64,000 nt of DNA from Anolis carolinensis (taxonomy: Eukaryota). Numbering within the stretch: the stretch's first letter is position 1; each line of letters begins with the position of its first letter. Position numbers: made by a program. Where the stretch lies: contig NC_085841.1 of the NCBI RefSeq assembly GCF_035594765.1, positions 191,441,574 through 191,505,573 of the forward strand, read 5' to 3'. Of this stretch, positions 872 through 8,300 are shown one piece after another.

Positions 872-3800
872 CATATTTCCAAAGTGTGAGAACCAAAGAA
901 ATGGTATAAGAAATGTTTTGTAATGTCCCTCACATTATCGACATTTTATCTCTGCCAAAAGTGATTCACAGTATGTTGCCCACATGTAGTCCCACTGCAG
1001 TGTGTTTTGTGATGGGAAAATGTATTTTTGTTTACCTAATTATATGCAATATAATGAAAAGTTAATATGTGAGTATTCATATTCCCCTTACAAATCCACC
1101 TGAAAATATTGCTGTTTTAATACCTGGGAATTAGAAGAGTAGTAATTACATGTAATCATTCAACATTCCCTTATGCGTTGATCCAGAGGCCTGCAAAATC
1201 AAGGACCATTAAAACAACATGCTGGTGGGGTTTTTTTTTAGGAATTTGAAATTCTAGATTGAAAAATGATCTTAGATGTGATCTTTTTTTAGAACTTGCT
1301 TTGATATTTTTATTTTCTAATGTGTGGCTAAGATGCCTTTTTGGAATAAACAGTAAAAAAGCTGAAATCTTCTAATAGACTTTCAATACACTTTAATTCC
1401 TTGATATGAAACACAAAAAATCAGTTCAAAAGCACTAAAAGATAACATAGATAACTGTGTAACATGATTTTTGTTCCTGTCATTTCCTAATTGGTTTTAT
1501 CATAAAACATGGAAAAAGTTTATTAAACTGCACAAAGGTTTCCTTATTTTCATTAGGGAAAATTACAAATGAAGTGCCTAGACTGAAGGAAATAATAGTA
1601 CTACCCTCAGCCACAAAAACGATGTTTCTGAAGTATAACAATTACTTTCAAAGTACTGCACAATTACATAGGAAATAACACTTTCAAACCAGGAACAGAA
1701 AATGTTTCAAATTTTGTTACATAGTGTAATCAAAACTAAGTTAACAACTGAATTGTCAGTCCTGAGAGAGAATGATTGGAAGTTCAACAATTCGGTAGAG
1801 AACTGTGGAGGGTATGGCATTGTTTTTGTGCTTTTTGAATTCTGTAACCAAAAATACTCGCACATTAAAAAACATCTATAATATTGAAAAAAGTTTTTCA
1901 TCACAGAACTGTGTGATTGGCAGTGAGTCATCCAGTTATCCCTCAAGGCAGTTTGGTTGAGCAGAGTAATGCTTAGGACAAGGTTTCTCCATATACCTAC
2001 ATACTCCACTCCACTATCAGCCCTTTTATGTAGGGCTGGCAACTTAATCTATGGATCATGTTAGAGCTGTCGCTTATTTATTTATTTATTTATGACATTT
2101 CTACCACACCTTTCTCTACCCTGAAAGGGACTCAAGGCAAATATGTGTACATGGGAATTTAAAAATGTTTTCAGTACTTTGTGTGTTTGTTTGGGTGGCT
2201 GGGCTAGGCAGATTCAGTGGGACTACAGCTTTTTAGGAAGGCTTTTTTTCTAATATCCCCAGCTGCAATGAAAATATCATTCTTTATTCTAATATTGCAG
2301 TTTGGAGAAAAAGGTGTTCATGCCAGTGCGATATTTACTTCACCAAGACAAACTGTAATGTATGTTTTGTCCAAATTGTAACCGGGGAGGAAAGGATCTC
2401 TTTAGAAATCGCCTCCTGCCCCATCTAGTATCAAATAATCTTGAATCCTAAGATGTTTCTATCCAGTAATTGAATGCAGTAACTATTAGGCCCTCAGCAA
2501 AATGACTATAGGCATTCTTCCTCTGTCTCATCAATTTTTTCTGCAGTATATTTGAGAAACATTCTGTTATGTATCAAATAAATGATATGCAATAGTAGAA
2601 TGAGCTTAATTAACAAGAGAATAACAAGTCTTTAAAGCCTTTAGTAAAATGTGTGACTGTTGCATTTTTTTTAGGAGTGGTCATTTCACGAAAGAACCAA
2701 TTTCATCTTCCCATCGATTGTCACAAAAATGTAGAAGAGCCGTGTCTGATGCAGGACCATCTATAGATATTCCCCTTGAAGATACAGACAGTAAGTTATA
2801 TTTATATACTAGTTTGGGGACCTGGTGGTGCCCAGGTCATTTGAGAAAGGCATTGTTTGCCTGTGTTCCAAGTGTAGTCTAGATCAAATGTCAGCTGGGT
2901 TCAGTGAGTGGGGGTGAACTACAACTCCCATATGCAAGTCCCATCGTCGATGGACCGTCCCCCTCCAAACAGCACCAGGATGTAGAGTGAGTCATGGTGG
3001 CTCTATGTGTAAAGTTTGGTCTTGATCAGTCATTGGTGGGGGTTTCAGTGGTCTCAGGAAGCGAATGAAGGTACTGTAAATCCTATCATCCTTGGTCCAT
3101 TGTCCCCCGCAGGAGGACATAAAGGGGGTCACGGGGGTTCTGCCTGCCAAATTTGGTCCAATTCCATCACTGGTGGGCAGCACAGTGGTCTGTGGAATTT
3201 GAAGCAATTGAAAGTACTGCAAATCCCATCATCTGTGGTCCATCCTACCCCAGATGACACCAGGCGGTAAAGTGCATCATGGGGGTTATGTGTGCTAAGT
3301 TTGGGCCAGGTCCATCATTCCTGGCAGTCACAGTGACCTGCGGAAGTGGCGGACAATCAGAAAGCTGCCACATACACAGAAATATACAAACATACCCACA
3401 TACAAACATTGACTTTTATTATCTTTTATTTTATTATATAGATAGATAATATAGATATAGATTATTGACCAAAGAAAAGATAAGGACTCTAATTATAGTA
3501 AATCTAAAACGACCAGGATCTTTATAAACAGACTGCAAAATAAACTTACCTACCCCCTTTTTCTTCACTCCTTTCCCATCCCATACTTCCCCAAATACTC
3601 CCCCCCACCATCCCTCCACTCCCCTTTCCCATCCCCGTTTACCTTGATTTCTTCTCTCTCTCTTTCATTTTTCCCTCCTCCTCTCCCCCCCCCCCCCCTT
3701 TTCCCTTCCCTTTCCCCTTTCTCCCCTTCTTCCTTCTTCTTGACCAGAATCGGAGCAGAAACACACTGGGATTGAATCTTCGCTCTCAGTTTCATAGATC

Positions 3801-5356: not shown

Positions 5357-8300
5357 TTATTTCACATATTTACATATTGCTATTTGTAAATGACAAACAG
5401 TTTAGGAAAGTATGTTGATATCTTACAAATCATGTTTTTTTAAAAAGGCTTTCATGAGATACCGTATGTTGGCCATACCCCTCAGCTAAGTTGGGCAAAA
5501 CACCCAGGTCCCCGGATATAGACACCTTTAACATCTCCAGGGCGACCAGTCAGGAAAACATACCAAGAATTCTGCCCCATGTCCAAAGGATTTTACAGAG
5601 CCAGAGCTCTCCGCGTTTCAAGGTCATTTCCGTTTGCCCTCACCCTGGTTGCGTAAACACAGGTGAGGGTTTCCGTTCCTGGCTCACCCCACAAAGGGGT
5701 GCCTTAGGTGTACACCAAATGTAAACCTATGGCTGCTTTCCGCCACAGATTAGGTGTAAGTGTCCACTTTACCCCTATCCCCTACCAGGCTCCAAAGCGG
5801 CTTTAATGTCCCTTTACAAGTCACCTAGGAATTGGTGATTGCCTGTATCTTTTTAAAAAAATAATTTTTATTGCAAGATTTGTAAGCAACAGTGTTACAT
5901 TTTCTTTAACATATATATATCTTTTTCTTGATACAATAAAAACCAAATTGACTGCTAAGGATGATTAGGGAAAGGGGAGGAGGGGGGGGGTCCGGCGGGG
6001 AATACGAGGGGAGGGGAAGGAGCAGGAGGAGAAAAAAAAGGGAGAGAGAAAAAGAATGGTTAATAAAAAAAACAACAAAAAACAACCCCCCCCCAAAAAA
6101 AACTATAAACACAGTTGCTATAATTTTCCTACTACTTCCAGGGTCCGTACTGCAAATCCCATCATCCGTGGCCCATCCTACCACAAATGGAACCAGGCCA
6201 TAAAGTGCATCATGGGAGTTAAGTGTGCCAAGTTTGGGCCAGGTCCGTCATTTTTGGTGGTCATAGTGGCCTGTGGAAGTGGCAGCAAGTCAGAAAGCTG
6301 CCACATGCCCACATACAAACACTCCTGGAAGTCCCATCATCCATAGTCCAAACTATTCCAAACTGGACCAGGATGTAGAGTGGGTAATCGGGGCTGTGTG
6401 CCAAGTTTGGTACTGACTGGTTGTTGGTGGGAGTCGCAGTGCTTTCAGAAAGTGAGTGAAGGTATTGCAGGCCCCATTGTCCATGGTCCATCCACCTCCA
6501 AACTGCACGAGGGTGTAGAGTGGGTTGTTGTGGCTCTGTATGCCATGTTTGGTCTTGATCATTCACTGGTGGGGGTCGCAGTGGTCTCTGGAAGTGAGTG
6601 AAGGTATTGTAATTCCCATCATTCATGGTCCATCATTCTCCAAACCGCACCAGGTTATAGAGTGGGTCATGGGTGGTCTGTGTGCCAAGTTTGGTCTTGA
6701 TCAGTCATTTGTGGCAGTTGTAGTGATCTCAGGAAGTGAGTGAAGTTACTGCAAGTCCCACTATCCTTGGTATGGCATTCCCCAAACTGCACCAGAATGT
6801 AAAGGGGGTCACGGGGGTTCTGTCTGCCAAGTTTGGTGCAGTTCCGTCAATAGTGGGCGCTGCATGGTCTGTGGGAGCCAAGCAATTGAAAGTACTGCAA
6901 ATCCCATCATCCGTGGTCCATCCTCCTCCAAACGGCACCAGGACAGAATGGGTCATGGGGGTTATGTGTGCCAAGTTTGGGCCAGGTCCGTCATTCGTGG
7001 CGGTCACAGTGGCCTGTGGAAGGGGTAGCCAATCAGAAAGTTGCCACATACACTGCCGCATACCCACATACATACAAACATTCACTTTTATTATATATAG
7101 ATAGATAGATATAGATAGATATAGATATATAGATATAGATGTATTATGTGTTCCCTGTTCTTGAAGTAGAAGCCCACTTGGAGCAGGGTCATGATCTTTG
7201 CTAGAGTAACAGTGAATACAGAGATTACAGAAAGGGCAAAATGTTTTTGGTGACATAGGTATGTGCAACCTGAGGTTAGGCATGCACATTCTTTGGTGGA
7301 TAGTGCAGAAGGCATTATTCATTACCTCCTTGCAAACTATCCACCCACTCCCTACAGATAGCTTGTAAGTACCTGGGCGGCCAAGATTGTATAGTAGCCA
7401 TGGGCAGAGAAGTTCCATAGCTGCAACTACTTATGACTGCATGGGAAAAGAAAGTTTAGTCACTTAAGATCTTGGAGGATGACCTCAGCACAAGGTTGTG
7501 GTAGATGTACACTCTTTCTGTTAGATGTATAATTGTAGCCACAGCTTCTTGCATTGTACTGATGAAATAGGGTGCTAATGGCCTGGCATTTTGCCCTTTG
7601 AAGCATTTCAGAGTGGATTCAAATGTTACTTTCCAAAGACTTGCACAAGAAATGGTAGTGATTTAATGAGAAAGGATATCCACAGGAACTGTGTTACAAA
7701 ACGAAGTTCTCTGTGGTCAGTGCAGGAATAATGAAGCTTTTGATTCTGTATTTGTTGTGGTGAAATAAAAAACACAATATTGATGGAACAGGGCCTGTGC
7801 TTTACTGTATTCAGAAATTTTTCATGCCGAAGTGTAAGTCTTTGTGTATTGTTTGTTAGTAGTAGTTAGTAGGGAGGAGCCCCAGTGGCGCAGCGGGTTA
7901 ATCTGCTGAGCTGCTGAACTTGCTGACTGAAAGGTCGGCGGTTCGAATCTGGGGAGTGGGGTAAGCTCCCGGTGTTAGCCTCAGCTTCTGCCAACGTAGC
8001 AGTTCAAAAACATGCAAATGTGAGTAGATCGATAGGTACCGCTCCGGCGAGAAGGTAATGGCACTCCATACAGTCATGCCAGCCACATGACCTTGGAGGT
8101 GTCTACGGACAACGGTGGCTCTTCGGCTTAGAAATGGAGATGAGCACCAAGCCCCAGAGTCAGACACAACTAGACTTAATGTCAGGGGGAAACGTTTACC
8201 TTTATCTAGTTAGTAGGGGGCTACTTCATGCTTTCTTGGAAGAACGATTTGTTTTACTAATGTGGAGAATCAGGTGAGATAAATGCAGAGGAGAGTCAGC

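What the first reader, a model, noticed from the sequence alone, without database searches (positions are those of the whole stretch)
2809..7101. Composite Helitron carrying foreign exons inside a PLEKHA3 intron (probable gene capture)
Seen: on the - strand there is a canonical Helitron 3' end (hairpin 2819-2838, CTAG, then T) only 18 nt into the intron. There are two TC-starting 5' ends, at ~3442 and 7101. The outer segment (6147-7101) has no terminator of its own. Between the segments lie ~2.7 kb of non-Helitron sequence with exon-like units in the Helitron's orientation. Established: Helitrons capture host DNA by bypassing a missing 3' terminator (maize, vespertilionid bats). Inference: this is a 4.3-kb reptilian Helitron that transduced fragments of another gene.
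Basis: partly seen in the sequence, partly recalled or inferred. Interest (0 to 1): 0.75.

Follow-up and report, generated by a model that had tools for sequence, protein, structure and literature searches.

The report
Old Helitron-type repeats in PLEKHA3 intron
Two decayed copies of a small rolling-circle-type (Helitron-like) repeat sit 2.7 kb apart in the last intron of the green anole PLEKHA3 gene, and nothing between them looks like captured exons, so this is ordinary intronic repeat DNA.

Summary
The window is Anolis carolinensis: PLEKHA3 exons match the named NCBI protein at 100%, and the last intron runs 2791-13643.

**Confirmed.** A repeat family built of ~142-bp tandem units lies antisense to the gene.
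- Copy A (2809-~3466) has a 7-bp GC-rich hairpin, then CTAG, then T, 18 nt into the intron. It is the only such motif on either strand of the 64 kb.
- Copy B (6147-~7145) has the same 5' end but no 3' end.
- No target-site duplication, terminal inverted repeat or tRNA-like head was found.

**Corrected.**
- B is itself chimeric.

**Not supported: foreign exons.**
- 0 of 60 ORFs scanned reach a Pfam cut-off.
- Three protein searches and two Atlas searches found no parent gene.
- Exon-like units are no denser than in other non-coding DNA of the window, on either strand.

**Untestable here.** No lizard DNA collection was available, so I could not test whether the 4.3-kb block ever moved as one unit.

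The parts
2675..2790 (+). Penultimate coding exon of PLEKHA3 (context); donor GTAAGT at 2791-2796
   Evidence: tblastn of the named Anolis carolinensis PLEKHA3 isoform X2 (P0008): the exon part is 100% identical. Borders read.
2791..13643 (+). Last intron of PLEKHA3 (10,853 nt), which holds everything below; the last exon starts at 13644
   Evidence: The last exon matches at 100% from 13646. Acceptor AG at 13642-13643.
2809..3466 (-). Copy A: a complete short non-autonomous Helitron-type element. Reading 5' to 3' on the minus strand: microsatellite, 5'-terminal unit, ~142-bp units, 3' end.
   Evidence: Self-BLAST and alignments. No TSD. No terminal inverted repeats.
2809..2812 (-). 3' terminus CTAG, followed on the minus strand by T (2808)
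   Evidence: Sequence. The only hairpin+CTAG+T site in 64 kb on both strands.
2819..2838 (-). Subterminal hairpin: 7-bp GC-rich stem, 6-nt loop, ending 10 nt from the element's end
   Evidence: DNA fold -7.9 kcal/mol, z -2.81, 1 of 200 shuffles as good.
3214..3442 (-).
   Evidence: Aligns with 6892-7101 and, in part, with 6147-6321.
3443..3466 (-). TATC/TATA-type microsatellite shared with copy B. The true 5' end may lie in it (A|TC also at 3461).
   Evidence: The A/B alignment extends to 3466/7145.
3467..6146 (.). 2.68 kb of sequence unrelated to the family: non-coding by every test run, origin unknown
   Evidence: No similarity to A or B. No other copy in the window apart from microsatellite-driven matches. 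0 of 60 ORFs reach a Pfam cut-off.
3529..4603 (-). Local tandem duplication of a ~0.5-kb unit (3529-4041 and 4040-4603)
   Evidence: 80.8% over 577 columns. The unique part is 95.9% identical (330 of 344 ungapped columns); the purine-rich part is 68%.
4148..4233 (.). Near-perfect palindrome (40-nt arms, 98%) inside the second duplicate
   Evidence: It draws only generic hairpin matches below gathering score in Rfam.
4905..5075 (-). Best exon-like unit: 171 nt, AG|...|GTAAG, open in one frame, hydrophobic stretch. No homologue found.
   Evidence: Read. Listed among 7 minus-strand candidates. 0 hits among 46 word-sharing candidates of 101-2000 aa. Atlas recognition 1637, best score 0.80.
3826..4011 (-). 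61-codon open frame with an ATG (duplicate at 4394-4573): no real homologue
   Evidence: Pfam best hit DUF7022, 19.3 bits against a cut-off of 27. 7 library hits, all with 4-12 short matched stretches. Atlas 0.86, recognition 2148.
5309..5353 (.). (AG)n microsatellite
   Evidence: TRF.
6147..6321 (-). B2: a second copy of the 5'-terminal unit. It lacks the last ~50 nt of the terminus and everything 3' of the unit.
   Evidence: 83.2% to 3214-3392 and 85.6% to 6892-7049. Alignment.
6322..7145 (-). B1: 5' end with microsatellite (7102-7145), 5'-terminal unit (6892-7101) and about four ~142-bp units (6325-6891). No 3' end.
   Evidence: TRF 6329-6837: period 142, 3.6 copies, 76% matches. Also.
22912..23243 (+). 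Diverged relative of the ~142-bp units on the opposite strand: a fragment without the termini
   Evidence: Low-stringency BLAST, 60-65% identity, E down to 9e-18. Sequence read.

Best explanation
The last intron of Anolis carolinensis PLEKHA3 holds a small cluster of old, decayed copies of one non-autonomous Helitron-type family. The family is built of ~142-bp tandem units between a ~100-nt 5' end and a ~50-nt 3' end. All copies lie antisense to the gene.

- **Copy A** (0.65 kb) is complete. It inserted between an A and a T 18 nt downstream of the splice donor and leaves the donor intact.
- **Copy B** (1 kb) is a rearranged 5' fragment without a terminator.
- **The 2.7 kb between them** is non-coding DNA. 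It contains low-complexity tracts, an (AG)n microsatellite and a fairly young local tandem duplication. No detectable piece of another gene is present.

My inference, not shown, is that A and B are neighbouring insertions or remnants of a local head-to-tail cluster at this site, not a gene-carrying composite. Mobilisation would have needed a RepHel transposase from an autonomous Helitron elsewhere, nicking at the 5' TC and stopping at the hairpin-CTAG end. That mechanism comes from the literature and was not tested here.
For: **Host and species**
- PLEKHA3 exons are 100% identical to the named A. carolinensis protein.
- A titin kinase/Ig exon lies downstream on the other strand.

**Helitron-type anatomy**
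- TC, CTAG, the hairpin and the A/T flanks are all present.
- The site is the only hairpin+CTAG+T motif in 128 kb scanned, against 0.08 expected.
- The longest word shared by the 40-nt flanks is 6-7 nt and is not at the borders, so there is no TSD.
- None of the 9 inverted pairs found is terminal.
- There are 0 tRNA-like genes and no Rfam match at gathering score.
- The hairpin ends 10 nt from the terminus. In the bat element Helraiser the palindrome lies 11 nt upstream (PMC4778049, passages).
- A. carolinensis is known to carry 2 autonomous and 6 non-autonomous Helitron families. One is old, at 19.4% divergence (PMC3014272, passages). A and B differ by about 22%.

**The middle is non-coding**
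- 0 of 60 ORFs scanned (of 65 listed) reach a Pfam cut-off.
- The two exon-like ORFs sent to the word-indexed search gave 0 hits at E <= 10.
- The exhaustive HMMER search gave 7 hits, all with 4-12 short matched stretches. The three inspected are internally repetitive proteins.
- Atlas recognition was 1637 and 2148, both under 2300, and the best scores were 0.80 and 0.86.
- Exon-like candidates number 7 on the minus strand (2.61 per kb) and 4 on the plus strand (1.49 per kb). Elsewhere in the window's non-coding DNA the range is 0.50-3.39 per kb per strand. ORFs of 70 aa or more number 6 (+) and 7 (-).
Against: - The 3' end is seen in a single copy, so its boundary is not defined by comparison.
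- The 5' boundary is blurred by a shared microsatellite.
- Two copies of one family within 2.7 kb in the same orientation is more clustering than random independent insertion would give. The other 59 kb hold only one distant fragment. Some link between A and B is therefore likely, and a composite is one such link.
- The word-indexed protein searches covered only proteins longer than 1.75 times the query, and the tool itself calls a blank 'weak evidence'. A lineage-specific or unannotated parent gene cannot be excluded.
Confidence: 0.6

Rival explanations
1. Composite without genes. The 4.3-kb block moved here as one unit. A terminator-less Helitron 5' part (B) was read through 2.7 kb of non-coding flank at a donor locus and terminated at the hairpin-CTAG of a downstream copy (A). 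This would be a 3' transduction of non-coding DNA, not of exons.
For: - B has a 5' end and no terminator, while A supplies a canonical one in the same orientation.
- The outer flanks fit an A|T site: A at 2808, T at 7140 or 7102.
- The read-through mechanism is shown experimentally for Helraiser and seen in bat genomes (PMC4778049, passages).
- Capture of extraneous DNA by an anole Helitron family is reported for Helitron-2N3 (PMC3014272, passages).
- The clustering of two copies is otherwise a coincidence.
Against: - Nothing shows that the block ever moved. There is no second copy in the window.
- A has a complete 5' end of its own, so it stands as an independent element.
- The model only moves the coincidence of two nearby same-strand copies to a donor locus.
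- Novick et al. call composite structure rare among anole Helitrons, with one family of eight.
Confidence: 0.2
2. A composite Helitron that captured exons of another gene, which now sit between the two Helitron segments in the Helitron's orientation.
For: - A 171-nt open unit with AG and GTAAG borders lies at 5075->4905 on the minus strand.
- A duplicated 59-61-codon frame starts with ATG.
- Both are in the Helitron's orientation.
Against: - No homologue was found for any unit tested: 0 hits, only repetitive-protein artefacts, and Atlas scores below the recognition level.
- 0 of 60 ORFs reach a Pfam cut-off.
- The density of such units equals the background, and the plus strand has them too.
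Confidence: 0.05
3. Not a Helitron. The ~142-bp-unit repeat belongs to another class, and the hairpin-CTAG at 2809-2838 is a coincidence. One candidate is a retroposon read on the plus strand with a (GATA)n-like 3' tail. Another is a dispersed satellite-like array.
For: - Both copies end on the plus strand in a GATA/TATA microsatellite, as the tails of some non-LTR elements do (the comparison with LINE tails is recalled, not tested).
- The 3' Helitron end is seen once only.
- Related units occur at 22912-23243 without Helitron ends.
Against: - There are no target-site duplications at any candidate border.
- No tRNA- or 5S-like head was found.
- The hairpin+CTAG+T motif has an expected count of 0.08 per window, yet sits exactly where the family's similarity ends, on the strand that also gives A|TC at the other end.
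Confidence: 0.15

Closest known systems
Non-autonomous Helitron families of Anolis carolinensis (Helitron-1N1_AC, Helitron-2N1 to 2N5_AC; Novick et al. 2011, PMC3014272, passages read)
   Same: - Same host species.
- Short elements (550-2,000 bp) without TIRs, inserted at AT.
- One old family with 19.4% divergence, similar to the ~22% between copies A and B.
- One family (2N3) carries extraneous DNA.
   Different: - I could not align this element with any of the published consensus sequences.
- The passages I read describe those families as internally deleted autonomous elements and do not mention arrays of ~142-bp units.
Helibat / Helraiser of vespertilionid bats (Grabundzija et al. 2016, PMC4778049, abstract and passages)
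   Same: - 5' TC and 3' CTAG ends.
- A subterminal palindrome about 10-11 nt from the end.
- Insertion between A and T.
- Read-through of a missing or unrecognised terminator as the route to composites.
   Different: - Here transposition, circles and transduction are not shown.
- There is no promoter or exon of a known gene inside.
- The hairpin sequence is unrelated as far as I can tell. No alignment was made because no bat sequence was at hand.
Helitron/Helentron-type non-autonomous elements that carry satellite-like tandem repeats (Pacific oyster; PMC7492417, seen as search listing and start of abstract only)
   Same: A short mobile element whose body is an array of tandem units between conserved ends.
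   Different: - Helentrons have different termini.
- The host is a mollusc.
- The resemblance is one of architecture only, and I did not read the paper's text.

Membership tests
Helitron (non-autonomous) | 5' terminus TC | tested here: met
   TC preceded by A at 3442 and 7101, and also at 3461 and 7139. The position is ambiguous within a shared microsatellite.
Helitron (non-autonomous) | 3' terminus CTRR | tested here: met
   CTAG at 2812->2809 in copy A only. Copy B has no 3' end.
Helitron (non-autonomous) | Short palindrome/hairpin about 10-12 nt upstream of the 3' end | tested here: met
   7-bp stem, 6-nt loop, ending 10 nt from the end. z = -2.81. The only such site in the window, against 0.08 expected.
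Helitron (non-autonomous) | Insertion between host A and T, no target-site duplication, no terminal inverted repeats | tested here: met
   A at 2808 (T on the minus strand) and T at 3443/3462. No duplicated word at the borders. No terminal inverted pair among the 9 found.
Helitron (non-autonomous) | Many dispersed copies sharing both termini, with empty sites elsewhere | not testable with these tools
Within the window there are 2 copies plus 1 distant fragment.
Helitron (non-autonomous) | Termini shared with an autonomous RepHel-encoding element | not testable with these tools
   No RepHel ORF lies in the region, as expected for a non-autonomous copy.
Gene-capturing (transducing) Helitron | Internal segment homologous to exons or a promoter of a host gene located elsewhere | tested here: not met
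   0 hits, only repetitive-protein artefacts, Atlas below the recognition level, and 0 of 60 ORFs at a Pfam cut-off. Promoter capture was not tested.
Gene-capturing (transducing) Helitron | The composite exists in more than one copy bounded by the same ends, plus a parental locus without them | not testable with these tools
   Needs the A. carolinensis genome. Only the 64-kb window was available, and it holds no second copy of 3467-6146.

The most novel reading that the evidence does not exclude
The 4.3-kb block is a genuine read-through composite. A terminator-less Helitron 5' fragment transduced 2.7 kb of non-coding anole DNA and borrowed the terminator of a downstream copy. It would be a natural reptilian example of the 3'-bypass mechanism shown for the bat element Helraiser, caught with both donor parts still recognisable.
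Probability: 0.15. Interest if true: 0.35.

Novelty: already known. Interest (0 to 1): 0.15.

Why it matters
As the evidence stands, this is a routine intronic cluster of old non-autonomous Helitron-type repeats in a genome already known to carry such families. One minor point of interest is that a complete element sits only 18 nt from a splice donor without disturbing the donor consensus. Another is that the family's body is an array of ~142-bp units.

Tried and rejected
- **Protein homology of the exon-like units.** I searched them one by one and never joined or spliced them. The 171-nt unit gave no hit and the 77-aa frame 4213-4446(-) gave no hit. The 61-aa frame 3826-4011(-), in the exhaustive library, gave 7 hits that are summed short matches to repetitive proteins. 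One has Myb/SANT-like repeats, which I take as chance at about 7 bits per stretch. Both Atlas searches were below the recognition level.
- **Weak Pfam match.** DUF7022 at 19.3 bits against a cut-off of 27: rejected as sub-threshold.
- **RNA genes or a SINE head.** 0 tRNAs. Of 31 Rfam matches at E <= 1, 30 sit on the palindrome 4137-4244 and all are far below gathering score.
- **Retroposon or cut-and-paste reading.** No target-site duplication at 7 candidate border pairs.
- **A single long Helitron split by a later insertion.** Rejected, because what follows the break at 6147 in the family is the next unit, whereas copy A starts with a full 5' terminus.
- **Similarity of 5308-5475 to 815-982**, next to a PLEKHA3 exon. 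It is driven by the (AG)n run and the flanks do not align convincingly.
- **A 7-nt word shared by the outer flanks** (CTTGAAG). It is not at the borders, and by my own arithmetic about 0.07 is expected by chance.
- **Literature search for the terminal 17-mer.** 0 papers.
- **Supplements of PMC3014272.** Closed.

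
Full report
**Context**

The window has no N. The open frame 2625-2879(+) finds two proteins among longer database entries, both named PLEKHA3 by NCBI: Anolis carolinensis isoform X2 (P0008) and A. sagrei (P0009). tblastn of P0008 against the window gives 100% identity at 769-813 and at 13646-13774. Within 2661-2789 the exon part is also identical. A. sagrei is 81-91% identical. The window is therefore A. carolinensis or something indistinguishable from it.

From the sequence:
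- the penultimate coding exon is 2675-2790;
- the donor GTAAGT starts at 2791;
- the acceptor AG is at 13642-13643.

The last intron is thus 2791-13643. Downstream on the minus strand lies a 2,076-codon exon with nine I-set stretches, a protein kinase domain and fn3, which is the pattern of titin's kinase-bearing 3' exon (that titin lies next to PLEKHA3 is recalled).

**The repeat family**

Self-BLAST of 2700-7300 against the window and TRF (6329-6837, period 142, 3.6 copies, 76% matches) show one family of ~142-bp tandem units in two places.
- Copy A matches copy B at 78.4% over 546 columns (2933-3466 against 6608-7145).
- 6147-6321 is a further copy of the unit next to the 5' terminus. It is 83.2% identical to 3214-3392 and 85.6% to 6892-7049. 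It lacks the last ~50 nt of the terminus and abuts the array at 6322, so segment B is chimeric.
- A low-stringency search finds one more diverged relative of the units at 22912-23243 on the other strand (60-65%), without termini.
- Nothing else in the 64 kb matches the family.

**Helitron hallmarks**

On the minus strand copy A ends with a hairpin (arms 2838-2832 and 2825-2819, 7 bp, 6-nt loop), 6 nt, CTAG (2812-2809), then T.
- As single-stranded DNA it folds at -7.9 kcal/mol, z = -2.81, with 1 of 200 shuffles as good.
- A scan of both strands of the window for 'GC-rich 7-bp stem, loop 3-8, spacer 3-15, CTAG, T' returns 1 site, this one. 100 shuffled windows gave a mean of 0.08 and a maximum of 2. 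With CTRR in place of CTAG there are 3 sites with 7-bp stems and 2 with 6-bp stems; the extra ones lie at 46 kb and 55 kb.
- TC preceded by A is present at 3442 and 7101.
- The A/B alignment continues to 3466 and 7145 through a TATC/TATA-type microsatellite, and A|TC also fits at 3461 and 7139. The microsatellite is more likely part of the element than two coincident targets, so the 5' ends are only approximately placed.
- No candidate border pair shows a target-site duplication. The longest shared words are 6-7 nt and do not sit at the borders.
- None of the 9 inverted-repeat pairs is terminal.
- ARAGORN finds no tRNA-like sequence.
- Of 31 Rfam matches at E <= 1, 30 lie on one palindrome and none is near a gathering score.
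- In Helraiser the palindrome lies 11 nt upstream of the right end, the ends are TC/CTAG, and insertion is between A and T (PMC4778049, passages). Here the hairpin ends 10 nt from the end.
- A. carolinensis is reported to hold two autonomous and six non-autonomous Helitron families, one of them old at 19.4% divergence (PMC3014272, passages).

I accept the Helitron-type assignment at roughly 0.75. The caveat is that the 3' end is seen in one copy only.

**The 2.7 kb in between (3467-6146)**

This stretch has no similarity to the family and no second copy in the window. The only outside matches are driven by the (AG)n run. It contains:
- a tandem duplication (3529-4041 and 4040-4603), whose unique part is 95.9% identical (330 of 344 ungapped columns) and whose purine-rich part is 68% identical;
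- a 40-nt-arm palindrome at 4148-4233;
- long purine/pyrimidine-rich tracts;
- (AG)22.

**Are there foreign exons?**

The best candidate on the Helitron's strand is 5075->4905. It is 171 nt long, bordered by AG and GTAAG, open in one frame, and encodes a hydrophobic stretch. A duplicated 59-61-codon frame with an ATG lies at 3826-4011 and 4394-4573.

I searched these units singly. I built no joined or spliced model, and that step was left out.
- **Word-indexed search among longer proteins.** The 171-nt unit gave 0 hits at E <= 10 from 46 candidates. The frame 4213-4446(-) gave 0 from 127 candidates.
- **Exhaustive HMMER search.** The 61-aa frame against 1.84 billion representatives gave 7 hits at E <= 0.001. 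Every one has 4 to 12 matched stretches. The three I inspected of the seven are internally repetitive proteins in which a ~25-residue match is summed many times. One has Myb/SANT-like repeats. None is a near-identical lizard protein.
- **Atlas.** Recognition was 1637 and 2148, below the 2300 that 91 in 100 real families reach. The best scores were 0.80 and 0.86, to phage clusters.
- **Pfam.** 60 of the 65 stop-to-stop ORFs of 30 aa or more were scanned. The five left out lie wholly or mainly in copy A. 0 reach a gathering cut-off, and the best is DUF7022 at 19.3 bits against 27.
- **Background control**. The pattern counted was YAG | open for at least 120 nt | GTRAG, together with ORFs of 70 aa or more.

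| Region | Strand | Exon-like candidates | Per kb |
|---|---|---|---|
| Internal 3462-6146 | - | 7 (3 distinct donors) | 2.61 |
| Internal 3462-6146 | + | 4 | 1.49 |
| Rest of intron and intergenic DNA | each | – | 0.50-3.39 |

ORFs of 70 aa or more number 6 (+) and 7 (-) in the internal region.

The exon-like look is therefore at background level and not strand-specific. The blanks are weak evidence in one respect. Proteins of similar length to the queries were not searched for two of the three units, and a lineage-specific parent gene would be missed.

**Composite or neighbours?**

B lacks a terminator and A supplies one in the same orientation. That is the geometry the read-through model needs. 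Two copies 2.7 kb apart are also more clustered than the rest of the window would suggest.

Against this, A is a complete element in its own right, and nothing shows that the block moved. The model merely transfers the coincidence to a donor locus. The Helraiser paper also describes Helitrons inserting next to one another.

A 'single element split by an insertion' does not fit, because the family sequence expected after 6147 is the next unit, not a 5' terminus.

The deciding tests are copy number of 3467-6146 in the genome, shared ends, and an empty orthologous site. All of this stayed unchecked.

**Verdict**

- The sequence observation is largely right.
- The Helitron-type assignment is reasonable.
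- The title claim of captured foreign exons is not supported.
- The composite idea is open but unproven.
- This is an ordinary intronic cluster of old non-autonomous Helitron-type repeats in a genome already known to have them. Interest is low.

Noticed in passing
window 23269-23610: A ~340-bp element with ~23-nt terminal inverted repeats (23271-23293 and 23587-23608), flanked by TA on both sides. It looks like a Tc1/mariner-type MITE and sits right next to the diverged ~142-bp units at 22912-23243.
   Followed up: no
window 24400-26513 (+): Remnant of a hAT transposase. ORF 25881-26513 matches the hAT C-terminal dimerisation domain (55.2 bits, E 6e-15, above the cut-off).
   Followed up: partly
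window 16643-17092 (+) and 19971-21155 (+): Reverse-transcriptase-like ORFs (RVT_1 at 26.6 and 22.5 bits, both below the 29.6 cut-off). Probably decayed non-LTR retrotransposons between PLEKHA3 and TTN.
   Followed up: partly
window 9567-9703: GC-rich minisatellite (period 21/42, 3-5 copies) inside a 63% GC island at 9501-10000, in the same PLEKHA3 intron. Several overlapping long ORFs there are a product of the repeat.
   Followed up: partly
window 4148-4233: Near-perfect palindrome (40-nt arms, 98%) created inside the second copy of the local tandem duplication. It produces many miRNA-precursor-like Rfam matches, all far below gathering score.
   Followed up: yes
window 32000-64000 (-): 3' part of a titin-like gene: a 2,076-codon exon (34064-40291) with a kinase, nine I-set stretches and fn3, then many Ig/fn3-sized open frames upstream. 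It lies tail to tail with PLEKHA3.
   Followed up: partly
window 2769-2808 and 7140-7179: The outer flanks of the 4.3-kb block share the word CTTGAAG within a loosely similar ~20-nt stretch. The word is not at the borders, and about 0.07 is expected by chance. Taken as coincidence.
   Followed up: partly
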